From contig JAFGPA010000009.1 in the NCBI GenBank assembly GCA_016926175.1, positions 54 through 64,053 on the forward strand: DNA of 64,000 nucleotides, read 5' to 3'. The notes under the pieces were generated by a model. It did no database searches. It was not told where the DNA came from and worked only from the letters and a program-made list of their open reading frames with translations. The translations under genes and the position numbers were made by a program. Of the stretch, positions 18,204 to 49,269 are shown piece by piece. The DNA comes from Candidatus Micrarchaeota archaeon (GTDB taxonomy: Archaea; Micrarchaeota; Micrarchaeia; Anstonellales; Bilamarchaeaceae). Within the stretch, counting starts at the first letter, position 1. Every line of letters begins with the position of its first letter.

Positions 18204-18267
18204 TCCCATTGTTCATAAAATGTTTTGCAAATTTTTAAAAACTTTACTAATGGAGGGAGGTTTTAGT

Positions 18268-19188
18268 ATGGCTGGTAGTTCTGCAACGAAAAAATGCCCA
18301 GAATGCGGCAGCAAAAGAATAGTGAGGGATTATGAAAAAGGAGAACTTATTTGTTCACAGTGCGGTTTGATTATTGCAGAAAATATTCATGACATGGGCC
18401 CTGAATGGCGCGCATTTGATGCCGAGCAAAAAGAGAAAAAGGCACGCGGCGGAGCCCCGATAAAATTCATGAGGCCAAACAAAGGTCTTGTTACCGAGAT
18501 AGACCAGTACAACAGGGACATAAGAGGAGGTAAAATCTCTCCGAAGAAACAGGCCCAGCTGTACAGGATGAGGAAATGGCACAAGAGGGTTTCAATTGCA
18601 ACTTCAATGGAAAGAAATCTTGTCATTGCCCTTGCTGAGCTTGACCGTGTTGCATCATCCCTTGGCCTTCCTGAAAACATCAAGGAAAGCGCTGCTTTGC
18701 TGTACAGAAGAGCAGTGAAGGAAGAGCTCATTCGCGGAAGACTGATAGAATCCGTTGTTGCCGCTGTTATATATGCCATCTGCAGACTGCAGGGCATTCC
18801 AAGGACTCTTGACGAAATTTCCAGAGCATCCGGCATCGAGAAAAAGGAAATCGGAAGAGCATACAGATTCCTGAAATCCGAACTGAAAGTAGACGTTCCT
18901 TTGACCGATCCTGCACAATATGTTCCAAAATTTGCCACTGCCCTGAAGCTTGGGCCTGAAGTCCAGGAAGAGGCAGTGAAGCTTATCAAGAAAGCTCTCA
19001 GGAAAGGCCTGATTTCCGGAAGAGGCCCGACAGGCGTTGCGGCAGCTGCTTTGTATATCGCATCTGCAATGCACGGCGAAAAGAAAACCCAGAAGGAAGT
19101 CGCTGATGTTGCCGGCGTAACCGAAGTTACTATCAGGAACAGATACAGGGAACTGAAAAAAGAGCTTGGCCTGAAGGTCAACCTTTGA
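18268..19188 (+). CDS. tfb: Transcription initiation factor TFB
   Basis: N-terminal Zn ribbon CPECGS...CSQCG, B-reader, two cyclin-fold repeats. Start set after the TATA box and the SD-like GGAGG. Confidence 0.9.
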   Translation: MAGSSATKKCPECGSKRIVRDYEKGELICSQCGLIIAENIHDMGPEWRAFDAEQKEKKARGGAPIKFMRPNKGLVTEIDQYNRDIRGGKISPKKQAQLYRMRKWHKRVSIATSMERNLVIALAELDRVASSLGLPENIKESAALLYRRAVKEELIRGRLIESVVAAVIYAICRLQGIPRTLDEISRASGIEKKEIGRAYRFLKSELKVDVPLTDPAQYVPKFATALKLGPEVQEEAVKLIKKALRKGLISGRGPTGVAAAALYIASAMHGEKKTQKEVADVAGVTEVTIRNRYRELKKELGLKVNL

Positions 19189-19977: not shown

Positions 19978-20751
19978 TCATTCTTCATCTTCAGATTCGT
20001 TTTCAGCTTCATTGCCCGGCCTTCCAATTCCTTTTCCAGGTATCTCATCCTGTCCGCCAGTTTTGTTCTGAGTCTGATTATGGATCTGCTCCTGTGTTCT
20101 GTTCTGGGTTTCACTCTGGTTTTTGTCTTCTTTTTCGCCTGGCCTCTCCTGCGTCATTTTACCTTCCCGCTCCTGCATTCTTTCCATGTGCCTTTCCTGG
20201 TTCATTATTGAGTTGTTTAGGGCATTAAGCACTCCTTCCTTTGCCTGTGCAGGTACTTTTTCATATACTCTCTGAAGGACTCTTATGCTGTTTCTCACTT
20301 CATTTTGTACCTGCTGAACATCTTCCTCATCTGCACTGCCTTCGTCAACTGCTTCTTCAATGGCATTTTGTGCGGCCTGGTTTTCCTCATTTTGTTCTGT
20401 GGTTGCCTGCTCAATAAGCCTCAGGGTTTGATTTAATCCTGCCTGATCCCCCTGTGCAGCAAATTTTTGTGCCTTGCCGGAAAGAACATGTGCCTCAACT
20501 GCCCTGAGCATTCCGTATTTTGCATGCTTTCTGGCCTTTTCAGCCTTGTCAAATGTGAAGAATTTATCGACATTCTCAAAAAATCTTTTGAATCCATAAG
20601 TGAATTCGCCCGGAAGTGTCCCTACTTCGCTTTCATTTATTATTATATCCAGTTCATCATTTGTGACATTTACATTCTCTTCACTGTTCTCTGCAAATGC
20701 AGGGACAACAAGCATTCCCAAAGCAACAATCAACAATACAAACGCTTTCAT
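19978..20751 (-). CDS. Secreted acidic coiled-coil protein (DUF5667-like N-terminal motif)
   Basis: Signal peptide MKAFVLLIVALGMLVVPAFA. LPGEFTYGFKRFFENVDKFFTF motif. Gln/Glu/Asn-rich low-complexity C-terminus. Confidence 0.6.
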   Translation of the reverse strand: MKAFVLLIVALGMLVVPAFAENSEENVNVTNDELDIIINESEVGTLPGEFTYGFKRFFENVDKFFTFDKAEKARKHAKYGMLRAVEAHVLSGKAQKFAAQGDQAGLNQTLRLIEQATTEQNEENQAAQNAIEEAVDEGSADEEDVQQVQNEVRNSIRVLQRVYEKVPAQAKEGVLNALNNSIMNQERHMERMQEREGKMTQERPGEKEDKNQSETQNRTQEQIHNQTQNKTGGQDEIPGKGIGRPGNEAENESEDEE

Positions 20752-20831
20752 TTACATCCTCCGGTCAAAAGACCGAACAAATAAAAACATGAACAATACT
20801 AAAATAATCCTGTGAACTGGCGTGAACAACT

Positions 20832-21653
20832 ATGAACAAGGCCGTATTTCTGACACTGCTGCTGCTATCGCTTGGCTTTTCATCTGTCATCTACACTGTT
20901 GATACTGACAGAGCCGGCTTTTCATATGTTACGGTCTCACTTGGGCAGGAAACATCCACAAACGTCAGCCTGCCTGCAGATGCAAACAATTTCCTTATAG
21001 TAGGAGGATCATATCGGTTAATCAACGGCACGTCACTTGTTTCCCCGGGCTTATCCGGCATAACAACATTCTCATTTACCAGTGAAATCATGACATCCAA
21101 GTCAGGTTCCGAATGGAAACTTAATTTTTCCCCGCCTGAAAATTCCAATGTCTATGTTTACATGCCTGGATTTGCAACAATTGTTTCCTCTTCCATACAA
21201 CCTTCAGCTGTTTCGTCAGAAAATTTCAGGACAGTTCTGCAATTTGATTCACAGGAAGCAATTACAATCTTCTACAGGCTTGATGAGGAATATGCTGAAC
21301 CGGAAAGCGATTCGACACTGATTCTTGCAGCTGCAATTATTGCAGCGGCAGTTATTGCCGCCCTGATAATCCGGCAGAGCAGCAAAAAGACCGGGAAAAA
21401 ATCATCATTGCACATTACTCCGGGAAAAAAGGAAATGATGGAAACGTTTAATGAAAATGACACTAAAATAGTTCTTTATTTATTACAGGAAAAAGGAAAA
21501 GCAAAAAGGAATGATCTTGAAAGAAAAACAGGAATAAGCAAATCAAGCCTTGCGATGGCGCTGAACCGTCTTGAAAAAAGAAAAATAATCGAAATTGACA
21601 GGGGGGCAACAACCCATTTCGTCAGGCTTTCCGAGTATTTTCTGAAACTGTAG
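20832..21653 (+). CDS. Membrane-anchored wHTH regulator (signal peptide - ectodomain - TM - cytoplasmic MarR/TrmB-like wHTH)
   Basis: TM LILAAAIIAAAVIAALII + RQSSKKTGKK, then NDTKIVLYLLQEKGKAKRNDLERKTGISKSSLAMALNRLEKRKIIE. Confidence 0.65.
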   Translation: MNKAVFLTLLLLSLGFSSVIYTVDTDRAGFSYVTVSLGQETSTNVSLPADANNFLIVGGSYRLINGTSLVSPGLSGITTFSFTSEIMTSKSGSEWKLNFSPPENSNVYVYMPGFATIVSSSIQPSAVSSENFRTVLQFDSQEAITIFYRLDEEYAEPESDSTLILAAAIIAAAVIAALIIRQSSKKTGKKSSLHITPGKKEMMETFNENDTKIVLYLLQEKGKAKRNDLERKTGISKSSLAMALNRLEKRKIIEIDRGATTHFVRLSEYFLKL

Positions 21654-21661
21654 GTGAAAAA

Positions 21662-22051
21662 ATGAAATACGCAATTTTATTGGCAATTATTCTGATTGCA
21701 GGATGTACTTCAGATAATGGACCTGCCGATACAACCGGAACTGTTCCGGCCGGCACATCTGAAGGTCCGGAAGACAGGAGCGGAACAATCACAACAACGG
21801 GGTATGCTGATTGTATGGAGCGCTGCGAATCTGGCGGGCCTGGAACCGGGCCATACTGCAAGGACGGCTGCAGGTTTGAACAGGCAGAAAATACAAAAGA
21901 TCTTTTCTACTGCAACCAGATGGACCAGAAAGAAAGCATTCCAGAATGCTATGGGACAGTTGCAATTGCTGCCGGAGATATAAAAATCTGCGACAAGCTG
22001 TCAAACCCGGAAGACCGGAATCACTGCCTTGCAGCATTCAGCCCAAGATAA
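21662..22051 (+). CDS. Small Cys-rich lipoprotein
   Basis: Lipobox-like LIAGC, Thr/Gly/Pro linker, then regularly spaced Cys (CMERCESG, CKDGC, CYGTVAIAAGDIKICDKL...HC). Confidence 0.6.
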   Translation: MKYAILLAIILIAGCTSDNGPADTTGTVPAGTSEGPEDRSGTITTTGYADCMERCESGGPGTGPYCKDGCRFEQAENTKDLFYCNQMDQKESIPECYGTVAIAAGDIKICDKLSNPEDRNHCLAAFSPR

Positions 22052-22080
22052 TTTAATTTTTTCCATATTAATTATTCTTT

Positions 22081-22593
22081 ATGAAAAGGGGGATGATATT
22101 TGCAGGCGGCCTATTGTTAGGGATCCTGGTCACTTATATTGGCACATTGTTTTTCATCGTGCCTGTCAATACTGTTTTTTCTCCGGATGACGGACGTGAA
22201 ATAATCGATCTCATAGATTCTGCAGAAGATTCAATTGACATTGAGATGTATGTCTTTACATCCCGGGATGTTGTTGAAGCTCTGGAACGGGCAAAAAACA
22301 AAGGAGTGGAAATAAGGATCATAGTGGAAAGATCAACCATAAGCGGATCCAACAAGGAAATATTCAATGAACTTTCTGCAAAAGGGTTCAGAGTCAAATA
22401 TGCATCAACAGCATTCCAGCTTACCCATTCAAAATTCATGATCCTTGATGGAAAAGTTGTTTTTGTCGGATCGCACAATTTCAGCAATTCTGCGCTGTAC
22501 AAAAACCGCGAAGCATCAGTAATAATATACAGTGAAAAAACAGCAGGCGAATTCCAGGAAACTTTTAATTATGACTGGAGCCTAGCTTCTTGA
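22081..22593 (+). CDS. Membrane-anchored single-HKD phospholipase D superfamily protein (Nuc-like endonuclease)
   Basis: N-terminal TM. One HKD motif HSKFMILDGKVVFVGSHNFSNSA. Its 170-aa size matches Nuc-type homodimeric nucleases. Confidence 0.8.
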   Translation: MKRGMIFAGGLLLGILVTYIGTLFFIVPVNTVFSPDDGREIIDLIDSAEDSIDIEMYVFTSRDVVEALERAKNKGVEIRIIVERSTISGSNKEIFNELSAKGFRVKYASTAFQLTHSKFMILDGKVVFVGSHNFSNSALYKNREASVIIYSEKTAGEFQETFNYDWSLAS

Positions 22594-23580
22594 AATTACA
22601 TATTTGCCATAAAGCCTTGCAAATACCTTGTATCTTCCGCGTTCAATCTTTGTTATCTGGCCACGGTCCAGCAGCCTTTTTACCAGCGCAGTAACAGGCC
22701 CGAGAGGGATTTTCAGTTCATTTGCAATGTCGGAAACATGGATAAAATCCCTTCTGGAAATTGACAGCAGTATCCTTCTCTCTGCAACGGGCGTTTCCTG
22801 ATACATTTTTCCAAACCATTCGCGGCCAAGCATGTTCATGATATGGGGCAAATATGCAAGATAATGGCCTTTGGATATTACCTTTTCATTCTCCCTTAGC
22901 CTGTCATAGATATGGTGGCAGACGGTTTTGAAAAGCCTTGGGTTGCCCTCGCTGTCATTCATTATTGAGCTGAAGCATTCCTCCCCCATCCTAAGCTCTT
23001 TTTCCAGTGCCTTTTCTACAACCTCCCTTGCCTCATGTTCTGCAAAGGGCTGTAAAACCATGGCTCTTTCTGATTTCATTTCTTTTGTACTGGTCATTAC
23101 AACTGAAATCCCCTGTTCAGCTGCCTTTTCAATTATTTCTATGGCTTCTTTCGCCTTTTTCATCCTGTCGATATCGTCGACAAAAAGAATTGTACCGAAA
23201 TGCCTGGGGCTGCTTGCAGTTTCCAGCAGTTCCCCGAAGCTTTCCGGAGTATTTCTTCTTATCTCCAGATTTGGTATGGCCCTGGTTTCCTGATAGAGCT
23301 TGTCTACCATAGCCTCCATTCCCTCTCCTTTCTCTATTTTAACATAAGGGGCCAGGGCACCCTCTTTTCTGGCAATATGGCTGAAATGCCTGATCAGGGT
23401 GGTTTTTCCTGTTCCCGGTCCTCCAGTTATCATTAATATTCCCGGCTGGCCTGAAACCGCTCCGTTGACGAAAGTGTTAAATATCCTGACTTCGTCTTTT
23501 CTGCCTATAATGTTTTCCGGATCTATTTCATATATCTGGAATGGATTTGGACCTTTCATTAAAATCCCTTTTTCATGCAA
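22582..23580 (-). CDS. AAA-type ATPase with C-terminal wHTH (archaeal ATPase / Orc1-Cdc6-like fold)
   Basis: Walker A GGPGTGKTT, Walker B ILFVDDIDR, C-terminal wHTH VSDIANELKIPLGPVTALVKRLLDRGQI. Confidence 0.75.
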   Translation of the reverse strand: MHEKGILMKGPNPFQIYEIDPENIIGRKDEVRIFNTFVNGAVSGQPGILMITGGPGTGKTTLIRHFSHIARKEGALAPYVKIEKGEGMEAMVDKLYQETRAIPNLEIRRNTPESFGELLETASSPRHFGTILFVDDIDRMKKAKEAIEIIEKAAEQGISVVMTSTKEMKSERAMVLQPFAEHEAREVVEKALEKELRMGEECFSSIMNDSEGNPRLFKTVCHHIYDRLRENEKVISKGHYLAYLPHIMNMLGREWFGKMYQETPVAERRILLSISRRDFIHVSDIANELKIPLGPVTALVKRLLDRGQITKIERGRYKVFARLYGKYVISRS

Positions 23581-23645
23581 AGCCGGGTTTTCCGCTTTTC
23601 TGGTTTTTTTAATCCTTTTTAAAGGTTTTGGTTGGGTTCAACCAG

Positions 23646-23668
23646 ATATGGCAGGATTCCTGCCATAT
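23646..23668. promoter_or_regulatory. Perfect 23-bp palindrome in the divergent promoter region (candidate operator)
   Basis: atatggcagga-t-tcctgccatat, 11-bp arms with no mismatch, between the ATPase-wHTH gene and the giant ORF. Confidence 0.45.
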
Positions 23669-23753
23669 ACGAACACTACTTTGTTGTTTTTACAACAAAA
23701 AACTACAATCCATGTAGTTTCTGTAGTTTCCATAGATACTATAAACCTAAACC

Positions 23754-23761
23754 TTTTTAAA
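23754..23761 (+). promoter_or_regulatory. TATA box candidate for the giant ORF (leaderless spacing)
   Basis: tttttaaa ends 22 nt before ATG 23784. Confidence 0.4.
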
Positions 23762-23783
23762 GCGCCGGACACCCGAACTAATC

Positions 23784-26700
23784 ATGACAGCCATAAGAAG
23801 TTTGTTTGGAATGTTTTTGTTCATGGTCCTGGTTGGCAGTGTATTTGCTCAGCTGGGCCTTGGTGGCCAGTCTTTCGAAAAGGAAAGCGTGGTCTACTAT
23901 GAAACTGACGCAACACGTCAGGTCCTCACTATCAGTGTGGTGGCATTTGAGCCGGCACAATCCCAGGACGGCACTCAGCTCACTGATACCATAAAGCAAG
24001 AGCTTTTAGCCGAATGCAGGGCAGAAGGAGCAGATAATATCATGGTTTGCCTGCAGAGAAAAGCCTTGGAGAGAACTGCCGCTTCAACTGATTACAGGCT
24101 GGATATGGAATCTCTTCAGGAAGGCACTATTACAGTATATCAGTGGAATGCCATCAGCAAAACATACGTTGTGGTTCCAACATGTACCCAGATTCCAATA
24201 AACAATGTCAGAACGGTAACTGACTCAAGCGGAGAGGCTGTCGACAATTATTATACTACATGTGATCTTTCAGGTGAACTTGAAGGGGCAACCTCGGCAA
24301 GCTTTGTCATTGAATACGAACCCCAGGAAGGTTCAGGCATAGCTCCGAGTACAACCACCTATTCCTATGACAGTGCCCGTGTTGCAGGTACAGATGCTTT
24401 AACCCAGCAGATCAACCAGGTTATAAGCGCAATATCAAGTGGCGGGGCAAACGGAACCCCGGCACTTCCATGTGTTGGCATATTCCTTATTCTGGGTCTG
24501 TTGCTGTCATCACTTTATTTCGCTGGCAAATCACCAGTTTCATTGCTCGATATCACCACACCAAGACTTCCGGCACCCAAGGGAGTAGCTGCAGGCGGAC
24601 AGATGCTCATGCCTTTTGGTTATGCGGAAATGGGAAGAACCACAAAAGCTAAAATGAGGACTGCTGCCGTAGCTGCCGGAGTGACTGCAGCCGGACTTGC
24701 TACAAAAAGCAGAGGAGATGTTGAAAGGCGCCAGCTTGAAAGCCAGGTGGATGCAACAGCAGCCAAAGCAAGCCGTGCGCATGTTGTTTCAGGAGATGTT
24801 GGAGAACAGGCCAATATACAGAAGGCGCTCATAGCAGGAGGAAGAGAAGCTGGAATGAGCCGGGCAGAGCTCGATAAGCTTTCAAGAAGACTTCTCTATG
24901 ACTACGGAGATTCAGAGCACAGGACAGTTGCACAGATACTTGAAAAGCTTAAGGCAAAGGGAGGAAAAAACGCTCTCATGGCAATGACTCTCCAGGACTA
25001 TATAATAGGCCAGAGGCAGCTTAAAACACTTGAAGCAATTACAACCCATCCTGACATAGGAAAAAGAGACTATGTTAGCGGTAAAATCTCAAGTGTCACC
25101 AGCAAGGCATTTGGTGTAAACAGATATGCAATAATCGGCGGTTTTGTTCCGGCCATGGTGGGTTCAACTACAAGAACTGCAAGGCAAATGGTCAGAATGA
25201 GCAAGGCATCAGTTAAACAAGCACCCAACCTGGTCAAAGCAACAGCAAGATCCACAATTGAACTTGTTGGAGGCAAGAGAGCGGTTGAAGAGCTTGAATA
25301 CAAGGCAAAGACTTCCCAGACTGCAGGATGGTTTGCAGGGCAGCTCAAGGAGAATCCTGCGTCTGTCATTGTCGGACAGTCATTCCCGGTAAGCGACAAG
25401 GCAGGATACTTCTACAAGCAGCTCAGGGATGAGGCTCACCACGATTCAATGAGATATCTTTTAAGACAGATCTACAAGAAGATGGGTGTCAAGTTCAATG
25501 TTTCCGAAGAAGAAATGGCGCAGATGGGCCATGTTGACATGGACATCCTGAAGAGATCAGGCTACAAGCCAACAAAAGAAATGCTTGCAATGGAAGCAGA
25601 ACTCAGGGGAATATTAGGAGACAAATCAAAGAGTTTCCTGGAAAAAGTAAATGCACTGACAGCATTTGCAGAGAGATGCGGAGCACACGTAGACCACAAT
25701 GCAATTGCGTTCACACAAAAAGTGGAATCAATACATATGTCTGTGGAAACAGACCATGGCAAGATGCTCCTGCTTCAGGAAGAGCTTGAAAGGCAAAGCA
25801 GGGTCAGGGGCTCAAATGTTCATGACGATGCATTTGTATGCCATATTGGCGGAGACACCCTAAGAGGCCCGGCCATCTGGGAAACTATGGTTCTTCGTAC
25901 AATGATCTACGATGCAGAAAATGGGCACCTCCAGGGAGGTATCCGCGAAGAGCTTCTGTCAGCCAGACTTAACACTGCAAACAGACTTGCAACTCTTGAT
26001 CCAAGCCATGCAGGTGCAATGGAACAGCTTCCGGAACACATGAGAAACCAGGCACAGCTTACGGCAGTTGCAGAAAGAAACAGGTCAGAACTGGTTCAGC
26101 TGTTCTCTGAAGAAGGGAAAGCAGCATTCCAGAAATCCCACAAGGACGGAAAGTCCATGGAGTCTGCTTCACTGCATGAAATAGTTGCATTCATGTATGG
26201 CGGAGGAGTCAAAGAAAAGGCAACCGGACACGTCGATCCAAAAACAGGAAAGATGATGTGGTGGGGTGCAGACCAGGAACACACAGTTCCAAAGGATTAT
26301 GCCCTTGTCGATGTCAAAAGACACTGGGTTGACCACGTAAGTGTACAGGACAACTATGCAATAGGGCAATGGGTGGAGTCCAGGTTCACAAGGAGCTATG
26401 TTCCGGCAGCCCGGGCATCCATTGAAGCAGAGCTCGACAGAATGCCAGGTTCAGCGGCATGGACAGTTGAGGAAAGGGCAAAACAGGCCAAAAAGCTCTG
26501 GATACGGGACGAAATGATCAAGGACTTCGAGCAGAGATTCAACTCACAGTTTGCAAATAATGCCTACGGCGGAACAACAAGGGAAACTGCAAGATTCTAC
26601 AATGGCATTGCAATGGGATTCCTTGCAAAGGCACTGGAAGAAAAGGGACTTTCATCCAATCACCCGGATGCAATGTTCCTTCAGGGCATTGACCACACCA

Positions 26701-28526
26701 ATCCACAGCACATTGGAAAAATGAGAGAACTTCTCTTGCTCCACCGGGATGCATATGAGAAGGTTGCACACAGGGATGTCACATATAATGATGTTGCCAA
26801 GTCCAGCAAGCCAATGGTTATGCTCCATGAAGGTGGATTTGCATACTATCACAAGGGCATGATGCTGTCAGATGCAGACCGTGTTATGGGCGGACAGGTG
26901 TCCATCCGGGATAACAACGGCCAGATGAGGGCATTTGTTCCTGATGATGTTGTAGTGAAATTCGGAGCAAGGGATGACCTTACAGCACAGTTCTACAAGG
27001 CAAGAGGCTCAAAGGATCCAAACGAATGGCATGGATTCCTTGATGCAGCAACCAAATGGACAAAGGAAGGCAACTACAGCTATGAAAAGGAGAAAGTGCT
27101 CGCAGCAGTGCTCTGGGAATACTCCAACAGAACCTATGATTATGAAAGATTCTGGAGCAAGAGTGCAGTTACTGTTGAATCCAAGAGGGAAGTGGCTCCT
27201 GTTGCACCCTCCTTCCTTAGATTCTTTGGTGCTGACGGCCACAAATACGATACAATGATCAAACCATTCAGGGACATTGGTCTTCATGCAGGAGATTATG
27301 TCTCCAAGGTTGCACTTGAAGCAGGGGGACCTGTTCATACAGCATCCTATGAAATCACTCCGACTTCAGAGTACTACAGGCAACACTCATGGAAGCTTGC
27401 AGAGAGGATAATGTCCGGGCAGGACGTTGCCCAGCTCTCAGATGCAGAGAAAGTTGCATACAGGAATTATGCACTTTCTCAGGGTGCATACCACCAGGTT
27501 TGGGACTATTCAATTGACAGGAACCCCTGGAGAACATCCACATCATTCGGAGCTGCACAGTCATGGGCATCATTCTTCCACTTTGGTCCTGCACAGAACT
27601 TTAACGTCAGGGACAACCTCAGGGCATACATGGGCAAGGGAGAGTATACCGGCTTTATGGCAACCCATGGGTTTGCACTTGACCTTGCAGGCAAAATGAT
27701 GAGGCCATACCTTGGGGCAATAAGAGGTATGCAGATGTCTATGCAGGGATATGCATCCAAATGGGACAGCCAGGACAATGCCCTGAGACAATGGAACTAC
27801 ACACAGCCAAGGCTCAGGGAAGCACTTCAGTCACTCAACCCATTCTCATACAGATGGTTCCCAGGCAAGACAAGCGAGAATATTGCCAAGCTCAATGTCT
27901 TTGGCGGTTCACTTGAGCAGCACCAGCTTGCAGGTCCTGAATATATGGCCGGCCTCAAACAGGCTCCACAGGACATATTCCTGCAGAGAAAGGGTGTCTA
28001 TGCCTCGGCAAGAACTGGCGAAGCAAACCCGGCAGCGTCTTTCTACAACTACAGACACGAACTCATGTACGATGCTCCAATGGCAGAGTATATGATCAGG
28101 CAGAAGGACGCATCCTTCATGTACGACAAGAAAGTACAGGATGCAGCAATGAACAACACCCAGAGAAGGACAGTGTCTGCAGAAGCACTTGCAATCAGAA
28201 GGGAAGAGGAACTCAGGGGATTCGGAATTATGCAGAACCCGCTTTACGGCTGGGCCAACCCGATAGCATTCCTCTGGCACGCACCTCTTCCGATGATGCC
28301 ATCATCCCTTACGCCAAAGGACATAGTGGCAAATGCAGTGAGAAAGCACAAGTATGGCCAGGGCGGATCCTGGAATGACACAATGAACCAGCTTGGGCAG
28401 AACATATCCAAGGGAACCAAGGATATACTCTCGCCACACATGCTTCACAGGACAGTTTACTGTCCCAGCTGCGGCAGAAGCGGCTACAGGGGAGCAAGAT
28501 GCGGCTGCGGCAAGCCTCTCTATTGA
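23784..28526 (+). CDS. Orphan giant membrane-anchored protein with C-terminal zinc ribbon
   Basis: Uninterrupted 1580-codon ORF. Signal peptide, ~200-aa ectodomain, TM ALPCVGIFLILGLLLSSLYFAG, >1300-aa unassigned region, terminal CPSCGRSGYRGARCGCGKPLY. Confidence 0.85.
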   Translation: MTAIRSLFGMFLFMVLVGSVFAQLGLGGQSFEKESVVYYETDATRQVLTISVVAFEPAQSQDGTQLTDTIKQELLAECRAEGADNIMVCLQRKALERTAASTDYRLDMESLQEGTITVYQWNAISKTYVVVPTCTQIPINNVRTVTDSSGEAVDNYYTTCDLSGELEGATSASFVIEYEPQEGSGIAPSTTTYSYDSARVAGTDALTQQINQVISAISSGGANGTPALPCVGIFLILGLLLSSLYFAGKSPVSLLDITTPRLPAPKGVAAGGQMLMPFGYAEMGRTTKAKMRTAAVAAGVTAAGLATKSRGDVERRQLESQVDATAAKASRAHVVSGDVGEQANIQKALIAGGREAGMSRAELDKLSRRLLYDYGDSEHRTVAQILEKLKAKGGKNALMAMTLQDYIIGQRQLKTLEAITTHPDIGKRDYVSGKISSVTSKAFGVNRYAIIGGFVPAMVGSTTRTARQMVRMSKASVKQAPNLVKATARSTIELVGGKRAVEELEYKAKTSQTAGWFAGQLKENPASVIVGQSFPVSDKAGYFYKQLRDEAHHDSMRYLLRQIYKKMGVKFNVSEEEMAQMGHVDMDILKRSGYKPTKEMLAMEAELRGILGDKSKSFLEKVNALTAFAERCGAHVDHNAIAFTQKVESIHMSVETDHGKMLLLQEELERQSRVRGSNVHDDAFVCHIGGDTLRGPAIWETMVLRTMIYDAENGHLQGGIREELLSARLNTANRLATLDPSHAGAMEQLPEHMRNQAQLTAVAERNRSELVQLFSEEGKAAFQKSHKDGKSMESASLHEIVAFMYGGGVKEKATGHVDPKTGKMMWWGADQEHTVPKDYALVDVKRHWVDHVSVQDNYAIGQWVESRFTRSYVPAARASIEAELDRMPGSAAWTVEERAKQAKKLWIRDEMIKDFEQRFNSQFANNAYGGTTRETARFYNGIAMGFLAKALEEKGLSSNHPDAMFLQGIDHTNPQHIGKMRELLLLHRDAYEKVAHRDVTYNDVAKSSKPMVMLHEGGFAYYHKGMMLSDADRVMGGQVSIRDNNGQMRAFVPDDVVVKFGARDDLTAQFYKARGSKDPNEWHGFLDAATKWTKEGNYSYEKEKVLAAVLWEYSNRTYDYERFWSKSAVTVESKREVAPVAPSFLRFFGADGHKYDTMIKPFRDIGLHAGDYVSKVALEAGGPVHTASYEITPTSEYYRQHSWKLAERIMSGQDVAQLSDAEKVAYRNYALSQGAYHQVWDYSIDRNPWRTSTSFGAAQSWASFFHFGPAQNFNVRDNLRAYMGKGEYTGFMATHGFALDLAGKMMRPYLGAIRGMQMSMQGYASKWDSQDNALRQWNYTQPRLREALQSLNPFSYRWFPGKTSENIAKLNVFGGSLEQHQLAGPEYMAGLKQAPQDIFLQRKGVYASARTGEANPAASFYNYRHELMYDAPMAEYMIRQKDASFMYDKKVQDAAMNNTQRRTVSAEALAIRREEELRGFGIMQNPLYGWANPIAFLWHAPLPMMPSSLTPKDIVANAVRKHKYGQGGSWNDTMNQLGQNISKGTKDILSPHMLHRTVYCPSCGRSGYRGARCGCGKPLY

Positions 28527-28558
28527 TCTTTTAATTTTTTCTCTTCTAATTTTATTAT

Positions 28559-31159
28559 ATGAGATTTCCTGTTTTGCTAATTATAATGATCTTTATTTCC
28601 GGTTGCCTGCAGAGTATAGGCTCTGAAGAATTCAGAAATGACTACATCCGAAACCTGCACAGAACTCCAATAAATGATCCTTCACAGATTGAAGAATGCA
28701 AAATAGGAAGCTGCTATTGCATGGTGTGCCAGAACGGAAGTCCGATATGGGGGGGCATATGGAACAATCTTGTTGGCGGCAGATGCTACATGGAAACGGA
28801 ATGCACGCCCGAACGGGCAATGGAGCTGAGGAACAGCACAGCGACACCTGATCTTTCAATAAGAAATTTCATGCTTGGCCAGGGACCGTCCATTGGCGAC
28901 TTTTCCGATGCCAATCCCTATTGCTCCAACAAACTTTCAATGGCAGTGGAATGGCTTGTGGGGAATGCTGACAATGCCTATGAAATGCCTGATGCAGGCA
29001 GGGCACTATGCGTGCTGAGCAGGGAAATAATTCCGGTTTATATTCTTTACAGTGAAGGAGAAAATATCAATGCTGCCCGTGCAGGGGAGATTGGCCGTAG
29101 CCTTGCAAATGACGGCCAGAGCCTTTACCAGGGCTTTCTTACTCCCGGGCCGGTCGGTCCCAATATTGTTGTTACCGAAATCGATTACGATATTTCTGAT
29201 GCAGGCCAGATAATCGAGCAGATTCGTGCAGTGAAGAATGCATGCGGCGATGCCTGCTGGGTTGCTGTTGCACCAAAAATCGGTGATACCGAAGCGCTTG
29301 ATGCAGTGATGGCAAGTGCAGGGGATCAGGTTGATGTCATTGCATTTGGAGTTAATGGAAATTATGTTGATGCCTGCAGTTCTGGAAGAATAAGCTCGCA
29401 GAAGATGATGAACCAGGTTGTCAATTTCACTGAATATGCAGTTTACACCTATGGAAAGCCAGCTTTAATACCCTATATAATGTTTGATCCTGATACCACT
29501 GACATAAACGGATGCGTCTGGAAGGAAAGTGATGTGACAGCGGCATATGGCGCATTCATACCCGGAGGAATCCAGCGCCTGAGAAAAATCGGAGTGATCG
29601 GCTTTGCACCATATTCATTTAACTCAACCAGCTTTGGCTCTGTTTCCAATCCGCTGAAATGTGCCAACTGTGCAATTGCTTCAAATGAGCAAAGGCTCAG
29701 GGCATACTATGGAGCATGCCAGCAGTATACAAACATTTCAGGAACGCGGCCATCATATGGCAACGAGATTCTTTATCCAAATGAATCAGCGGGCTTCTGC
29801 GATTTCGGTACAAGCATTGAGGGCCTGCTCAGGGAGACCAGCTATGCCAGTGTGGGCGGAAACCGGGATTATCTTTCTCCAAATGCGCCGGAACTCAGGC
29901 CTGTCGGCACTCCATCATTCAGATGCAGTTCCTGCCTTTTGAGCAATATTACCTCCAATCCTGTTGCGCCGTTTAATTTTGGAGGCACAGCATCTGTTGA
30001 TTCTTCAAGTTTCCACGGCTGCATTGAATACCAGGATGAAATAAATGCATGGGCAGATGCAAGAAACCTTGATCCCATGCTTGTACGTGCATTTGCATTG
30101 ATTGAAAGCAATCTTGATCCAGGTGCGGCTGCAAGAGTGTGCAAGGAAGGATATACAGGCACAGGTCCTGACGGAAGACCATGCTTTGAAGCAAGCCCTG
30201 CACAGGATGAATGCTATTCAAATGCATACCGGATAATGGACGATCCGTCTGGAACATACGATTTTGCCGATGCTCCGGATGCAGAAGACCTTGATGAAGA
30301 CCCAGACTGGAAATGGTGCGGCCTTGGTTTTATGCAGTCACTGGAGCCTCCCTATACATTGTGGCCGGCATCTGTAAATCCAAGCGGAGAGCCCGGCGAG
30401 TTTGCGTGGGCATGCGATGATGCGGGAATCTGCTCTGAAAATCTTCTCGTTGTTGCAAGGGGATGCGCGGCGGAAACAGATCCTCCCGGGCAGTTCAATC
30501 CATTCAATATTTCACATTCACTGTGCATTGGAACATACAAGATGCAGCAGGGTCTGAACGCTGCAAGAGGAATAGTCCGCCAGATGAAAAGCGACGGCCT
30601 TCTTGTAAACAGCAATGCTGAAAACGAGGAAGTGCTTGCAGCTTATATAATGGCCCAGATGTACGGCGGTTCCTGGGGGATTACAGGAAGTAGTATGAAA
30701 ACAGTGAATGGCGTTCTTCCCCCATGCGGAAGCGAAACCTCTGCCGGGGACTGCTTCAGAAGCCTGTTTGCAGAGAATATGCGATGGAACAGGGACGCCT
30801 GCGTGGAAGACAGCGGCGGGGAACTTCCCTGGCAGTGCAGTGAAGAAGGCGTGCCAAGATGGCAACCTCCGGAATACTGTTTTGGGGAAAGCGATCCTGC
30901 TGTTTTCTGGGACCAGTGCATCCAGCCATTCCTGACAACTCCTAACAATCATGGAAATGTAAAAATGAAGCAGTTCTTTGCTCTGCAGAGTTGCAGTACC
31001 AATCTTTGTCCTGACGGCCTGAAAATGCTCAACGATATTTGCACTCCTGATGAAAGCGGAACACTAAATGAAGAGCTGTGCGAAGGCCCTGGAAGGCCGA
31101 GAATTCCTGAATCAGGAAGCTACTATGCACAGGCTGCAGAGCAGGCACAAGACAACTGA
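28559..31159 (+). CDS. Cys-rich secreted lipoprotein with alternating beta/alpha N-domain and lysozyme-like (GH23 / SLT-like) C-terminal signature
   Basis: Lipobox-like FISGC. LVRAFALIESNLDPGAAA (catalytic-Glu-like ES at nt 30104-30109), GLGFMQS (about nt 30320-30340), AYIMAQMYGG. Starts 33 nt after the giant ORF. Confidence 0.7.
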   Translation: MRFPVLLIIMIFISGCLQSIGSEEFRNDYIRNLHRTPINDPSQIEECKIGSCYCMVCQNGSPIWGGIWNNLVGGRCYMETECTPERAMELRNSTATPDLSIRNFMLGQGPSIGDFSDANPYCSNKLSMAVEWLVGNADNAYEMPDAGRALCVLSREIIPVYILYSEGENINAARAGEIGRSLANDGQSLYQGFLTPGPVGPNIVVTEIDYDISDAGQIIEQIRAVKNACGDACWVAVAPKIGDTEALDAVMASAGDQVDVIAFGVNGNYVDACSSGRISSQKMMNQVVNFTEYAVYTYGKPALIPYIMFDPDTTDINGCVWKESDVTAAYGAFIPGGIQRLRKIGVIGFAPYSFNSTSFGSVSNPLKCANCAIASNEQRLRAYYGACQQYTNISGTRPSYGNEILYPNESAGFCDFGTSIEGLLRETSYASVGGNRDYLSPNAPELRPVGTPSFRCSSCLLSNITSNPVAPFNFGGTASVDSSSFHGCIEYQDEINAWADARNLDPMLVRAFALIESNLDPGAAARVCKEGYTGTGPDGRPCFEASPAQDECYSNAYRIMDDPSGTYDFADAPDAEDLDEDPDWKWCGLGFMQSLEPPYTLWPASVNPSGEPGEFAWACDDAGICSENLLVVARGCAAETDPPGQFNPFNISHSLCIGTYKMQQGLNAARGIVRQMKSDGLLVNSNAENEEVLAAYIMAQMYGGSWGITGSSMKTVNGVLPPCGSETSAGDCFRSLFAENMRWNRDACVEDSGGELPWQCSEEGVPRWQPPEYCFGESDPAVFWDQCIQPFLTTPNNHGNVKMKQFFALQSCSTNLCPDGLKMLNDICTPDESGTLNEELCEGPGRPRIPESGSYYAQAAEQAQDN

Positions 31160-31176: not shown

Positions 31177-32307
31177 CTATTTCAGCCATTCTTTTCCTTC
31201 TATTTTTTTCTTGATGTATTCTCCTACAAATGTAAGCCTTTCGCCCTGCAAAGCATCCTGCTCAATCTTTTTCTTGGTTTTCAGCACAAGCTTGAGTTCG
31301 TGGACCCAGTCCTTTGACCTGTTGATCCACGGATAGCCGAGCATCTCTTCAGCCCTTTTGATGTCAACTTCCTTTGCCCTGATTGTCAGCTTGTCAAGAA
31401 ACTTGAATTCTTCAATGTCGCTCATTGTTACCCCTATGAATTTTGCTTCTGGAACAGCAAAATCCCTTCCAAGATATGCAAGGTTCATGCTTCCTGTCTT
31501 GATTGTCCAGTAGATGTACCATCCCCACGCATCACAGTCCATAAGGCAATATACCGGCAGTTTTCTGTCTGCAAGCTTCCTCAGCAGCCTTCTTGTTCCC
31601 CTTGTCGACTGCCCCTTTGGCGTGACCAGCAGGCAGTTTTCCTTTTTCCAGAATTTGTCTTCATTCAGTCTTTGCCAGAGGGCATCTTTTTCCACTACAA
31701 GAACCCACTCTGCATCCAAGGATTCAATATCCATCCCATTATCGACATCAGATGGGATGGACCATCCTGACCTTCCCTGTTTTGAAAGGTCTATCAATGT
31801 TTCTTCACCGCCAAACCTGTCCCTGATGGTCATTCCCCCTGCCACAAATCCCTTCCTGTCTGTTGTAAGGTTGAGATCCTCTCTTTTCAGCTTCAGTGCA
31901 ACTTCCAGGTCTTCGATCAATGCATTGGATTCGCTCTGCTCTGTGAAAAGATCCTCATCCATTTCCTCCCCAAGTGAGAACTTCAGCTGGTAGAAAAGAC
32001 CCCTGATTGAGGTGTGCAGGTCCTGCTCCAGGAATGTTTTTGATTTTGCAGCAATTGCAACAGTCTGCATGAATGTCCTTGCCTGTGCAACTGAAAGATA
32101 TTTCCTCAGTTCTTTTTTATCGCCTGTTCTGAGACAGCCCAGCCCTTCATCATAAATGGTATTGCCTTTTGTTCTCAAAGTGGTTTCAAATGTCGGGCCT
32201 TCTCCTGCATGGATCTGCACAACCATGTCTTTTCCGAGCTTTTCAAGCTTCTCCTTCGCTTTCATCTTTCTCCTCCTCAATTCTTTCGGTGGTTTCGGGC
32301 TCATCAT
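31177..32307 (-). CDS. top6A: DNA topoisomerase VI subunit A (Spo11-like)
   Basis: RGLFYQLK region with the catalytic Tyr, Toprim VLVVEKDA and CLMDCDAWG. Alternative start MKAKEK at 32265; overlaps the top6B end. Confidence 0.9.
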   Translation of the reverse strand: MMSPKPPKELRRRKMKAKEKLEKLGKDMVVQIHAGEGPTFETTLRTKGNTIYDEGLGCLRTGDKKELRKYLSVAQARTFMQTVAIAAKSKTFLEQDLHTSIRGLFYQLKFSLGEEMDEDLFTEQSESNALIEDLEVALKLKREDLNLTTDRKGFVAGGMTIRDRFGGEETLIDLSKQGRSGWSIPSDVDNGMDIESLDAEWVLVVEKDALWQRLNEDKFWKKENCLLVTPKGQSTRGTRRLLRKLADRKLPVYCLMDCDAWGWYIYWTIKTGSMNLAYLGRDFAVPEAKFIGVTMSDIEEFKFLDKLTIRAKEVDIKRAEEMLGYPWINRSKDWVHELKLVLKTKKKIEQDALQGERLTFVGEYIKKKIEGKEWLK

Positions 32308-48343: not shown

Positions 48344-49269
48344 TCTCCGAGGAACTCCAGCAGTTTTTTCCGTACTTCTACCTCCTCATAGCCCGCATAA
48401 AATTCAAAACAATCTACTCCTTCAACTAAAGATGCATATTTCTTGAAAATATCTCCAGTTCCATCCGTGATGTCTTTATTTAAGATAGCCCAAACGAAAG
48501 GTATCTCTTTCTTGTAAATTCTTATCAGGTTCAATAATGCTATCTTGTAATCCATCTTCTTTATTTCACTAGTGTCATTGTTCCAAATTTTCAAGAATAT
48601 TATGGTGTCTGGTTTTCCATATTCAAAGTCATGATCCACGTATTTTTCGATTTTAAAAGATTTAGATTTTATCTCAAATCTCTTTTCCAAGTCCTTATCA
48701 ATTGTGGTATTCATGCTAAATGGAACCAATCCTTTCCCGTCAAATAATACTGAATCATCACTGATGGCCTTTGCTCCATTTCGAACTAATCTAAGTAAAG
48801 ATGATGATTTTCCACAGTGGCTATCTCCGCAAAAAATGATGTTCTTTCCATTATAATGCGCTGCTGATGCATGGATATACACCATTCCGTTTTCCTGAGC
48901 TGAAATAATTATTGACCATTTTAACAATAATCTTAACATCAATCTAAGTTCTTCTGTATCGTCAATATAATCTACAATCATTTCTCTTTTGACAGGATCC
49001 ATTACAATGGAATATTCTTTGTCTTTGCCGATTATGAAAATCTTTTTGTTGTGTGCATATATTGCCTGCCCATCAAAGACATTGGTCCTTATTGCTTTGT
49101 TAGGAACCTCAATTTTTGATGTTTTTTTGATTCTGGTGAAAAAAACATGATCTTTTTCCTTTATCTGGTACTGATTTATCTCATTGTCAATATACTTGAA
49201 AAGATCGTCTTTATCATGTTCGATTTTAAGAACCACATTTGCGAAATTATAATAATCATCCATGTGCAT
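48340..49269 (-). CDS. HPr-kinase-related (HprK C-terminal domain-like) P-loop protein
   Basis: IHASAAHYNGKNIIFCGDSHCGKSSSLLRLV...AISDD mirrors the HprK GxSGxGKS P-loop context. Confidence 0.68.
   Translation of the reverse strand: MHMDDYYNFANVVLKIEHDKDDLFKYIDNEINQYQIKEKDHVFFTRIKKTSKIEVPNKAIRTNVFDGQAIYAHNKKIFIIGKDKEYSIVMDPVKREMIVDYIDDTEELRLMLRLLLKWSIIISAQENGMVYIHASAAHYNGKNIIFCGDSHCGKSSSLLRLVRNGAKAISDDSVLFDGKGLVPFSMNTTIDKDLEKRFEIKSKSFKIEKYVDHDFEYGKPDTIIFLKIWNNDTSEIKKMDYKIALLNLIRIYKKEIPFVWAILNKDITDGTGDIFKKYASLVEGVDCFEFYAGYEEVEVRKKLLEFLGD

What the first reader, a model, noticed from the sequence alone, without database searches (positions are those of the whole stretch)
19978..31159. Cell-surface island grouping a nuclease, an ATPase-wHTH, the giant protein and a muralytic-like lipoprotein
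Seven consecutive genes between tfb and top6AB include only one soluble cytoplasmic protein, the AAA ATPase with a C-terminal wHTH. The rest are secreted or membrane-bound:
- a DUF5667-like secreted coiled-coil protein
- a membrane-anchored wHTH regulator
- a Cys-rich lipoprotein
- a TM-anchored single-HKD Nuc-like PLD nuclease
- the giant protein
- the Cys-rich SLT-like lipoprotein
The combination of envelope breaching, an extracellular nuclease, a huge membrane scaffold and an NTPase would suit an apparatus for interacting with or taking material from another cell. I know of no described system with this gene set. By hand count, nt 25261-25320 has 28/60 G+C and nt 48601-48660 has 19/60, so composition is heterogeneous across the window. 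The Ala/Gly-rich protein composition explains part of this.
Basis: inference. Interest (0 to 1): 0.62.

Follow-up and report, generated by a model that had tools for sequence, protein, structure and literature searches.

The report
Micrarchaeota giant-protein and glycosidase envelope module
In this tiny symbiotic archaeon (Micrarchaeota), the seven-gene "island" is really an ancient, inherited two-gene unit: a 1,580-residue membrane protein of unknown fold plus a surface enzyme with two sugar-cutting domains; a nuclease and a dedicated gene switch were added later, and the unit's function is still unknown.

Summary
All seven genes exist as described, in a 1.05-Mb Micrarchaeota (DPANN) genome, but they are not one conserved system.

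**Conserved core.** The giant gene is followed directly by the 866-aa lipoprotein gene in 38 of 40 informative loci, across an order and several other families. The two genes often overlap by four bases (ATGA).

**Later additions.**
- The membrane-anchored PLD is linked only within one family.
- The ATPase-wHTH occurs only in a subset of that family.
- The other three genes are neighbours only in the three closest genomes.

**The ATPase is most likely a regulator, not a motor.** It comes with a three-half-site operator (23702-23727) that is unique in the genome. A strict motif scan finds it in 14 of 19 loci with the ATPase and 0 of 22 without.

**The two core proteins.** Most of the giant's mass is predicted to be cytoplasmic. 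Its confident model matches no solved or viral fold. The lipoprotein combines a GH-A-type TIM barrel with an SLT-like domain.

**Wider context.** A second, partly homologous giant/lipoprotein pair exists elsewhere in the genome. Both pairs sit next to arrays of an unknown polytopic membrane family ("c8"). That family in turn sits next to VirB4/CedB-like ATPases. A secretion-like machine is therefore possible but unproven.

The context is housekeeping and the composition is native, so this is not a mobile island.

The parts
23784..28526 (+). GIANT: 1580-aa single-pass membrane protein. Signal peptide residues 1-23; Cys-bearing ectodomain 24-227; TM 228-246 (nt 24465-24521); conserved post-TM motif GKSPxSLLDITTPRLPxPKG; about 1,330-aa helical body; zinc ribbon at residues 1560-1575 (nt 28461-28508).
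   Evidence: More than 60 full-length homologues, every source-named one a Micrarchaeota/DPANN MAG, none with a Pfam domain. Topology. AF2 model of residues 381-1580: pLDDT 83.4, pTM 0.85. No PDB or BFVD fold match: best E 0.056 and 0.025, TM below 0.1. Invariant residues G248, P251, D256, P260, P263.
28559..31159 (+). P866: Cys-rich lipoprotein (lipobox-like SGC; 38 Cys). GH-A-type TIM barrel at about residues 95-400 (candidate acid E207, nt 29177-29179). SLT-like domain at about residues 485-830 (E516-S517, nt 30104-30109; GLMQ-type motif GFMQ at 590-593).
   Evidence: AF2 model pLDDT 79.7, pTM 0.81. Foldseek matches to GH53/GH26/GH5/GH10 barrels: E 2e-5, probability 1.0. 13 of 28 homologues hit Pfam SLT, best 5e-5. 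Conservation: E207 27/28, E516 27/28, G590 28/28, Q593 25/28. G15/C16 conserved in at least 90%. Family of 336 representatives among 1.84 billion proteins.
23702..23727 (.). Three-half-site operator ACTACA-N5-TGTAGT-N3-TGTAGT, about 30 bp upstream of the giant gene's TATA box (TTTTTAAAG, 23754-23762). The start codon at 23784 implies a leaderless mRNA.
   Evidence: Unique in the 1.05-Mb genome, with 0.5 expected for the inverted repeat alone. A strict motif scan finds it in 14 of 19 ATPase-bearing loci and 0 of 22 ATPase-less loci; Fisher p = 3e-7. The half-site sequence changes in step across genera (ATACAA, ACGACA, AGACAT) while the layout stays the same.
22582..23580 (-). AAA+/STAND-type ATPase (Walker A at residue 53, Walker B near 132) with a C-terminal wHTH. 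Transcribed divergently from the giant gene. Proposed dedicated regulator.
   Evidence: Pfam AAA_16 3e-12, HTH_24 4e-6. Orc1/Cdc6 model 30 bits vs a cut-off of 181. Present only in 19 loci of family f1, always divergent from GIANT, and co-occurring with the operator.
22081..22593 (+). Membrane-anchored single-HKD PLD (Nuc/DrmC-like). N-terminal TM with N-in orientation, so the catalytic domain faces outward. HKD motif at nt 22426-22449.
   Evidence: PLDc_2 1.2e-33. NucT 1.4e-13, DrmC 2.8e-17 and 7.9e-21, all below the equivalog cut-offs. On the same strand, upstream of GIANT, in 19 family-f1 loci; directly adjacent in those that lack the ATPase (L049, L051, L052, L054). Absent from every non-f1 locus.
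23646..23668 (.). Perfect 23-bp palindrome ATATGGCAGGATTCCTGCCATAT, on the ATPase side of the intergenic region. Possibly a second, lineage-specific operator.
   Evidence: A different perfect palindrome sits at the same place only in the closest relative (L031, TTATGGAAGAATTCTTCCATAA) and is absent from the other loci.
19978..22051 (.). Three neighbours that are not part of the conserved unit: DUF5667 secreted protein (19978-20751, -), membrane-anchored wHTH (20832-21653, +), and a 129-aa Cys-rich lipoprotein (21662-22051, +).
   Evidence: Homologues adjacent only in L031, L034 and L035 among 40 loci.

Best explanation
The region is a composite, not one apparatus.

**Core.** The core is an old, vertically inherited two-gene operon found in one large Micrarchaeota clade.
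- P866 is a disulfide-rich lipoprotein held on the outer face of the membrane. It carries two glycan-cleaving domains: a GH-A-type barrel and an SLT/GH23-like domain.
- GIANT crosses the membrane once. A small Cys-bearing ectodomain faces outward, and a 1,330-aa helical body of unknown fold with a zinc ribbon lies in the cytoplasm.

**Proposed mechanism (inferred).** GIANT's ectodomain and its conserved membrane-anchor module hold or control P866. This would couple sugar-cutting at the cell surface to the cytoplasm and to other membrane components. The most likely partners are the 'c8' polytopic proteins that are encoded next to the pair in sister families.

**Add-ons in this family.**
- An outward-facing PLD nuclease was added upstream. 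It probably degrades extracellular nucleic acid, or possibly lipid.
- An ATPase-wHTH regulator was later inserted divergently. It binds a three-half-site operator to control the operon.

**Likely target.** The genome has no Mur-ligase gene, so the glycan being cut is more likely on a partner cell or in a surface or matrix polymer than in a wall of its own.

**Shown:** gene linkage, domain folds, conserved catalytic-type residues, and co-occurrence of operator and regulator.
**Inferred:** topology, physical pairing, substrate, and direction of regulation.
For: - **Pair adjacency.** 38 of 40 informative loci, co-directional, with an ATGA overlap in six. The loci span family f1, families f2, f3, f6 and f7 of the same order, and f15 and f16 of the class.
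- **Matching distribution.** GIANT in 74 of 201 and P866 in 78 of 201 sampled genomes, covering all 37 genomes of f1 and nearly the whole order.
- **The pair duplicated as a unit.** A second pair, GIANT2/LIPO2, is also adjacent wherever I looked. GIANT and GIANT2 share only the TM anchor module (hhalign 98%, E 1e-13). P866 and LIPO2 share the barrel (97.7%, E 2e-12).
- **P866 domains and residues.**
- **GIANT.** Confident model with no fold match.
- **Operator.** Unique in the genome and tied to the ATPase.
- **PLD.** Same-strand linkage within f1.
- **Native origin.** Housekeeping context and native codon-position GC.
- **No Mur ligase** in the 93%-complete genome.
Against:
- All sampled genomes belong to one class, so some synteny could be inherited rather than selected. 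Rearrangements around the pair, and its duplication as a unit, argue against that.
- Exceptions exist. In G063 and G122 the two genes lie on different contigs. In f6 genus g22 (two loci), P866 stands without a recognisable GIANT next to it.
- SLT is sub-threshold for the window protein, and the fold search returned only N-domain matches.
- The barrel's expected nucleophile position is acidic in only 23 of 28 sequences, and D and E are mixed there. The barrel could bind sugar rather than cut it.
- Topology rests on hydrophobicity and charge only.
Confidence: 0.5

Rival explanations
1. Part of a T4SS/Ced-like translocation machine. In this reading the c8 polytopic proteins form the channel (VirB6/CedA role) and the VirB4/CedB-like ATPases encoded elsewhere are the motor. 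P866 (and LIPO2) would be the VirB1-like wall-opening enzyme. GIANT (and GIANT2) would be scaffolds or substrate docks inserted through the shared anchor module. The machine would move DNA, protein or other material between the symbiont and a partner cell.
For: - c8 arrays of 3-6 copies sit directly upstream of GIANT in all nine order-level loci outside f1.
- c8 arrays sit next to LIPO2/GIANT2 in the window's own genome and in L077, L079, L080 and L081.
- In the window's genome, single c8 genes are followed by a 2-TM protein and an ATPase. That ATPase's best models are VirB4-like CD1110 (3.7e-19), CedD (1e-18) and CedB (4e-18), ahead of HerA (1e-13).
- In G138 the order is c8 array, LIPO2, GIANT2, 2-TM protein, ATPase, all on one strand.
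- In G079, P866 lies 1.3 kb from that ATPase module.
- The ATPase is present in 61 of 61 genomes of the order.
- Ced and Ted are recognised as T4SS derivatives in archaea (PMC9905601).
Against: - c8 has no detectable similarity to VirB6, TrbL, CedA or anything else in Pfam, NCBIfam or PDB sequences.
- c8 occurs in 178 of 201 genomes, far more widely than the pair.
- Direct adjacency of the ATPase to a giant or lipoprotein gene was seen in only two genomes.
- The ATPase scores are far below the equivalog cut-offs.
- No pilin or coupling protein was tied to the pair.
Confidence: 0.2
2. Housekeeping remodelling of the cell's own envelope. P866 would trim the organism's own surface glycan (S-layer glycans or another polymer) during growth or division. 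GIANT would be the cytoplasmic-to-surface coupler, by analogy with FtsEX control of wall hydrolases in bacteria.
For: - Single copy, vertically inherited, and universal in the order.
- Embedded among tfb, top6AB, DUF530, KH-domain and tRNA-synthetase genes.
- The length of GIANT is tightly conserved.
Against: - No Mur-ligase gene, so no murein- or pseudomurein-type wall to remodel.
- Absent from more than half of the sampled Micrarchaeota, including whole families. It cannot be essential for the phylum's envelope.
- No FtsE or FtsX is involved.
- In one sub-clade the module is under a dedicated switch, which fits a conditional function.
Confidence: 0.2
3. One reading: all seven genes form one cell-surface apparatus, with the ATPase-wHTH as its energy source.
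For: The genes are contiguous in this genome and in the closest relative, L031. Six of the seven products have a signal peptide or TM segment.
Against: - Three of the genes are neighbours only in three genomes.
- The ATPase is missing from most lineages that keep the pair.
- The ATPase carries a DNA-binding domain and tracks a promoter-proximal operator.
Confidence: 0.05
4. The PLD and the ATPase form a small anti-virus defence pair (DISARM- or BREX-like parts) that merely sits beside the giant operon.
For: The PLD's best defence-library match is DrmC (7.9e-21). The ATPase has weak hits to mad8 and BrxD. The two genes are convergent and overlap by 12 nt.
Against: - No DrmA, DrmB, methylase or BREX core gene lies nearby.
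- The PLD has an N-terminal anchor that should put its domain outside the cell.
- The PLD is linked to GIANT even where the ATPase is absent.
- The ATPase tracks the operator at the GIANT promoter.
Confidence: 0.05

Closest known systems
Large extracellular SLT-domain proteins of Woesearchaeota and Pacearchaeota (fam00969; Castelle et al. 2021, PMC8204110)
   Same: A DPANN archaeon with no murein of its own encodes a surface protein with a murein-type lytic transglycosylase domain. Those authors proposed that it binds or cuts a partner's wall.
   Different: - A different phylum, and a family closed on itself: 336 representatives, with no spill-over into general SLT proteins.
- The enzyme is a separate 750-950-aa lipoprotein with an extra GH-A barrel.
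- It is paired with a mostly cytoplasmic giant protein, rather than being one giant secreted protein.
VirB1-type lytic transglycosylases within T4SS, and the archaeal Ced/Ted systems (VirB4-, VirB6- and VirB2-like parts; PMC9905601)
   Same: An SLT-type enzyme encoded with membrane-machine genes. VirB4/CedB-like ATPases and arrays of polytopic membrane proteins are linked by gene neighbourhood in relatives.
   Different: - No VirB4-like gene lies in the island.
- c8 shows no detectable VirB6/CedA similarity.
- No T4SS or Ced/Ted component known to me corresponds to the giant protein.
- The weak PDB sequence hit to EtgA is not significant (E 0.13).
FtsEX-type control of extracellular wall hydrolases (EnvC, PcsB, CwlO, RipC) in bacteria
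   Same: The concept only: a membrane protein couples a cytoplasmic state to an extracellular glycan or peptidoglycan hydrolase encoded beside it.
   Different: No sequence or fold relation, no ABC ATPase, a single-pass rather than polytopic membrane protein, and an organism without murein.
Orc1/Cdc6-type AAA+ plus winged-helix proteins used as transcription regulators in archaea
   Same: The same two-part layout (AAA+ P-loop followed by a wHTH) and binding sites with dyad symmetry. From my own knowledge, an Orc1 paralogue acts as a regulator in Sulfolobales.
   Different: The score against the Orc1/Cdc6 model is 30 bits against a cut-off of 181. The protein is 332 aa and confined to part of one family, so it is not a replication initiator.
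Nuc/NucT/DrmC single-HKD PLD nucleases
   Same: Size, a single HKD motif, and the PLDc_2 domain.
   Different: An N-terminal membrane anchor with the domain predicted to face outward. No DISARM partners. The substrate (nucleic acid or lipid) is untested.

Membership tests
SLT / GH23 family-1 lytic transglycosylase (P866 C-terminal domain) | Score at or above the Pfam PF01464 gathering cut-off | tested here: not met
   The window protein scores 12.2 bits against a cut-off of 21.3, E 0.087, and has no Pfam hit at E 0.1. 13 of 28 homologues hit SLT at E up to 1, best 5e-5.
SLT / GH23 family-1 lytic transglycosylase (P866 C-terminal domain) | Catalytic Glu in an E-S motif, followed by a G-L-M-Q motif | tested here: met
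   E516 in 27/28, S or T at 517 in 26/28, G590 in 28/28, Q593 in 25/28.
SLT / GH23 family-1 lytic transglycosylase (P866 C-terminal domain) | Lysozyme-like helical fold | tested here: inconclusive
   The model is helical over residues 485-830. The whole-model fold search returned only matches to the N-terminal barrel, and the domain could not be searched alone.
Clan GH-A (beta/alpha)8 glycoside hydrolases (P866 N-terminal domain) | TIM-barrel fold similar to GH5, GH10, GH26 and GH53 | tested here: met
   Foldseek against PDB: 45 matches with E up to 1e-3, top hits GH53, GH26 and GH5, probability 1.0, target TM 0.43-0.56.
Clan GH-A (beta/alpha)8 glycoside hydrolases (P866 N-terminal domain) | Two catalytic Glu residues, at the ends of strands 4 and 7 | tested here: inconclusive
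   E207 follows strand 202-205 and is conserved in 27/28. The residue after strand 302-308 (D310) is D or E in 23/28 and S, P or K in the others. Strand numbering is inferred from the model, not from a superposition.
PLD superfamily, Nuc-like nuclease | PLDc_2 domain above the cut-off, with one HxK(x)4D motif | tested here: met
   116 bits against a cut-off of 27; HSKFMILD at residues 116-123.
PLD superfamily, Nuc-like nuclease | Nuclease rather than phospholipid activity | not testable with these tools
   The best models are DrmC and NucT, ahead of cardiolipin synthase, but all are below the equivalog cut-offs.
Type IV secretion / Ced-Ted systems | VirB4/CedB-type ATPase encoded with the system | tested here: not met
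   The island's ATPase is AAA_16 plus wHTH. VirB4/CedB-like ATPases lie on other contigs (C20, C4, C16). One was adjacent to a giant or lipoprotein gene only in G138 and G079.
Type IV secretion / Ced-Ted systems | VirB6/CedA-like polytopic channel protein | tested here: inconclusive
   c8 arrays are linked by neighbourhood but match no family or PDB sequence. No structure model could be made.
Orc1/Cdc6 | Score at or above the TIGR02928 cut-off | tested here: not met
   30 bits against a cut-off of 181.3.
DISARM defence system | DrmA and DrmB (and a methylase) encoded beside DrmC | tested here: not met
   None of the neighbouring genes has helicase, DUF1998 or methylase domains.
Mobile genomic island | Foreign composition, a flanking tRNA or integrase, and patchy presence among relatives | tested here: not met
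   GC3 is native. There is no tRNA or Rfam match. The housekeeping context is conserved in relatives.

The most novel reading that the evidence does not exclude
GIANT/P866 and GIANT2/LIPO2 could be two versions of an undescribed kind of trans-envelope machine that arose in Micrarchaeota. A shared 70-residue membrane-anchor module would plug different giant cytoplasmic bodies into a hetero-oligomeric channel. That channel would be built from six c8 paralogues and powered by VirB4/CedB-like ATPases. The Cys-rich glycosidase lipoproteins would open a partner cell's surface. This would be the route by which these symbionts take nucleic acids or lipids from a host.
Probability: 0.15. Interest if true: 0.9.

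Novelty: new variant of a known kind. Interest (0 to 1): 0.6.

Why it matters
How DPANN archaea attach to other cells and take material from them is an open question. For the large non-acidophilic Micrarchaeota lineages, no molecular candidates were described in the papers I could search.

This module offers concrete candidates:
- a two-domain surface glycosidase;
- a giant protein of unknown fold with a conserved membrane-anchor motif;
- an outward-facing PLD;
- a regulator with a defined operator.

It also links the module by gene neighbourhood to arrays of unknown membrane proteins and to VirB4/CedB-like ATPases.

Several parts can be tested in the laboratory without culturing the organism: the enzyme domains, the PLD, and the regulator-operator pair. 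If the giant protein's confident model holds up, it also adds a large new fold.

Tried and rejected
- **Giant and P866 against Pfam and NCBIfam:** no hits.
- **Profile searches against PDB sequences:** only noise for the giant and c8; a non-significant EtgA hit for P866.
- **Fold search of the giant model against PDB and viral structures:** nothing, with TM below 0.1.
- **c8 against Pfam and NCBIfam, member by member:** nothing. The idea that c8 is VirB6-like therefore stays untested.
- **Replication origin beside an Orc1-like gene:** rejected. The ATPase is far below the Orc1 cut-off, occurs only in a sub-clade, and the intergenic region is often only about 90-120 bp with one operator.
- **The 23-bp palindrome as the conserved control element:** rejected as the general one. 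Only the closest relative has a counterpart, whereas the ACTACA/TGTAGT element is the conserved one.
- **Foreign origin of the higher-GC block:** rejected.
- **Defence-system reading:** rejected.
- **A weak match of a truncated 1161-aa ORF on contig C9 to the giant's post-TM motif:** judged to be chance.
- **Literature:** searches found no description of this pair.

Full report
**1. What is in the window**

ORF listing and translation confirm seven genes between tfb (18220-19188) and top6A/top6B (31177-33829).

| Coordinates | Strand | Product |
|---|---|---|
| 19978-20751 | - | DUF5667 protein |
| 20832-21653 | + | membrane-anchored wHTH |
| 21662-22051 | + | 129-aa Cys-rich lipoprotein |
| 22081-22593 | + | single-HKD PLD |
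| 22582-23580 | - | ATPase-wHTH |
| 23784-28526 | + | GIANT, 1580 aa |
| 28559-31159 | + | P866, 866 aa |

Pfam and NCBIfam support the DUF5667, wHTH, PLD and ATPase calls, and give nothing for GIANT or P866.

Every GIANT homologue that carries a source name comes from a Micrarchaeota/DPANN metagenome-assembled genome, including Ca. Bilamarchaeum dharawalense at 49% identity. The window lies in a 1.05-Mb, 93%-complete genome.

**2. Is it one system?**

I fetched 20-kb neighbourhoods of GIANT homologues from 40 other genomes and annotated them with BLAST and with HMMs built from the window's proteins.

- **GIANT and P866.** P866 follows GIANT directly on the same strand in 38 of 40 informative loci. 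The gap is often -4, an ATGA overlap. This holds even where GIANT is only 15-27% identical to the window's copy.
- **Exceptions.** In G063 and G122 the two genes lie on different contigs. In family f6, genus g22 (two loci), P866 has no recognisable GIANT beside it.
- **PLD.** It lies upstream on the same strand in 19 loci, all in family f1. It abuts GIANT where the ATPase is absent (L049, L051, L052, L054).
- **ATPase-wHTH.** It is present in 19 loci, a subset of f1, and is always divergent from GIANT.
- **The other three genes.** DUF5667, TM-wHTH and the small lipoprotein recur only in the three closest genomes.

Across 201 sampled genomes of the phylum, GIANT is found in 74 and P866 in 78. 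Both cover all of f1 and almost the whole order, plus families f15, f16, f18, f23 and f24. Both are missing from other families such as f10 and f11.

The conserved unit is therefore the pair. The PLD and the ATPase are successive family-level additions, and the rest is local context.

That context is housekeeping: tfb, top6AB, DUF530, a KH-domain protein, HEAT repeats and tRNA synthetases. GC3 is native, and there is no tRNA or known RNA nearby. This is not a mobile island.

**3. The ATPase is most likely a regulator**

The ATPase-GIANT intergenic regions of 19 loci share one element: ACTACA-N5-TGTAGT-N3-TGTAGT. It is an inverted repeat followed by a third half-site, about 30 bp upstream of the TATA box of the giant gene (window 23702-23727; TATA at 23754-23762; start codon at 23784, so probably a leaderless mRNA).

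- In some genera the half-site sequence differs (ATACAA, ACGACA, AGACAT) but the three-site layout is kept. This is what a co-evolving protein-DNA pair would produce.
- A strict scan finds the layout in 14 of 19 ATPase-bearing loci and in 0 of 22 loci without the ATPase; Fisher p = 3e-7. The other five have one-mismatch versions.
- In the window's genome the composite site occurs exactly once.

With its C-terminal wHTH, the ATPase is best read as a nucleotide-dependent transcription factor dedicated to this promoter (inference).

The 23-bp perfect palindrome at 23646-23668 has a counterpart only in the closest relative.

**4. The two core proteins**

*GIANT*

- **Topology.** Signal peptide, a 200-aa ectodomain with conserved Cys134, Cys160 and Cys230, one TM (228-246), an invariant post-TM motif (G248, P251, D256, P260, P263), then 1,330 Cys-poor residues ending in a zinc ribbon. 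By the positive-inside rule and the zinc ribbon, the large body is cytoplasmic (inference).
- **Structure.** An AlphaFold2 model of residues 381-1580, from 31 sequences, is confident (pLDDT 83.4, pTM 0.85) and mainly helical. It has no match in PDB or in the viral structure library: best E 0.056 and 0.025, TM below 0.1.

*P866*

- **Anchor and model.** It has a conserved lipobox-like G-C. Its model has pLDDT 79.7.
- **N-terminal half.** It matches clan GH-A TIM barrels (GH53, GH26, GH5, GH10) with E 2e-5 and probability 1.0. E207 after strand 4 is conserved in 27/28. The strand-7 position is acidic in 23/28.
- **C-terminal half.** It carries the family-1 SLT motifs: E516-S (27/28) and G-L-M-Q. 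13 of 28 homologues hit Pfam SLT, although the window protein itself is below the cut-off.
- **Family size.** Small and closed: 336 representatives among 1.84 billion proteins.

The genome has no Mur-ligase gene, so a murein- or pseudomurein-type wall of its own is unlikely to be the substrate.

**5. Wider context found while following the evidence**

- **c8 arrays next to the pair.** In the nine order-level loci outside f1, a tandem array of 3-6 paralogous polytopic membrane proteins ('c8'; 300-570 aa, 4-9 TM, no known family) lies directly upstream of GIANT.
- **c8 in the window's genome.** Six-gene c8 arrays lie elsewhere, at C19:17368-24934 and C2:14120-21501.
- **A second pair.** The C2 array is flanked by a 1411-aa lipoprotein with 61 Cys (LIPO2) and by a divergently oriented giant-like gene (GIANT2, cut by the contig end).
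- **The second pair in relatives.** The order c8 array, LIPO2, GIANT2 forms a single-strand cluster in L079, L080 and L081. GIANT2 is inverted in this genus.
- **Partial homology between the pairs.** GIANT and GIANT2 share only the juxtamembrane anchor module (98%, E 1e-13). P866 and LIPO2 share the central barrel (97.7%, E 2e-12). A giant-plus-lipoprotein pair was therefore duplicated as a unit, which independently argues that the two proteins work together.
- **c8 is much more widespread than the pair.** It occurs in 178 of 201 genomes, with many copies per genome.
- **Link to VirB4/CedB-like ATPases.**
  - In the window's genome, single c8 genes at C20 and C4 are each followed by a 2-TM protein and an ATPase. 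That ATPase's best models are VirB4-like CD1110, CedD and CedB, ahead of HerA.
  - The ATPase is in 61 of 61 genomes of the order.
  - In G138 it follows GIANT2 on the same strand.
  - In G079 it lies 1.3 kb from P866.

This makes a T4SS/Ced-like machine (PMC9905601) a serious but unproven reading.

**6. Interpretation**

- **Best supported (0.5).** A conserved envelope module in which a surface glycosidase lipoprotein works with, and is probably held or controlled by, a giant membrane-anchored protein. In this family it has an added outward-facing PLD and a dedicated ATPase-wHTH switch.
- **Rivals.**
  - Part of a T4SS/Ced-like machine (0.2).
  - Remodelling of the cell's own envelope (0.2).
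  - The original seven-gene apparatus (0.05).
  - A PLD-ATPase defence pair (0.05).

**7. Comparison with what is known**

The nearest published case is the large SLT-domain surface proteins of Woesearchaeota and Pacearchaeota (PMC8204110). The description of Ca. Bilamarchaeum does not mention this pair (PMC8561730). Full-text searches found no account of it.

Earlier notes from this scan on other genomes reached a similar core reading. I re-derived that core reading here. This report adds the following:
- the co-variation of operator and regulator;
- the paralogous second pair;
- the adjacency of c8 arrays to both pairs;
- the link to VirB4/CedB-like ATPases.

**8. Limits**

- All evidence is computational.
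- Gene calls in the relatives are my own simple ORF calls.
- All genomes belong to one class.
- No expression data could be obtained.

Noticed in passing
Own genome contigs C19:17368-24934 and C2:14120-21501 (outside the window): Two arrays, each of six tandem paralogues of an unknown polytopic membrane family ('c8'). The family is present in 178 of 201 Micrarchaeota genomes, with many copies per genome. Genes resembling type IV pilins lie downstream of the C19 array, at C19:28531-32097.
   Followed up: partly
Own genome contig C2:9884-14119 (-) and C2:21582-23051 (+): A second, partly homologous pair: a 1411-aa lipoprotein with 61 Cys, and a giant-like protein cut by the contig end. They flank the C2 c8 array, and the arrangement is conserved across the order.
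   Followed up: yes
Own genome contigs C20:7614-12037 and C4:8406-12680; a third ATPase copy at C16:38467-39696: A repeated module of c8, a 2-TM protein of about 260 aa, a VirB4/CedB-like ATPase, and a coiled-coil protein of about 250 aa. The ATPase is present in 61 of 61 genomes of the order.
   Followed up: partly
window 23646-23668: A perfect 23-bp palindrome between the ATPase promoter and the conserved operator. Only the closest relative has a counterpart, with a different sequence.
   Followed up: yes
L031:12376-12797 (closest relative, ATPase-GIANT intergenic region): About three tandem copies of a roughly 48-bp unit (gtcaaaacctgcttatgcttctccccggtggtttttggaatccacctga) are inserted in the orthologous intergenic region. 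They are absent from the window.
   Followed up: no
Other families: G167:C4, G092:C1, G030:C1, G115:C62, G039:C3: ORFs of 2,300-3,200 aa match the barrel part of the P866 profile, so much larger relatives of the lipoprotein exist.
   Followed up: no
L053:1-6700 (G054): Upstream of GIANT lie four tandem genes (418-489 aa) built from a roughly 55-aa repeat (…NPRDIT..DF.DNRLSGL…YLA…PEIKEWEM). They have no significant Pfam match.
   Followed up: no
L050, L052-L057, L064 (relatives): A DUF530 protein and a 135-150-aa HTH-like protein lie between P866 and top6A in most of these relatives. The window lacks both.
   Followed up: no
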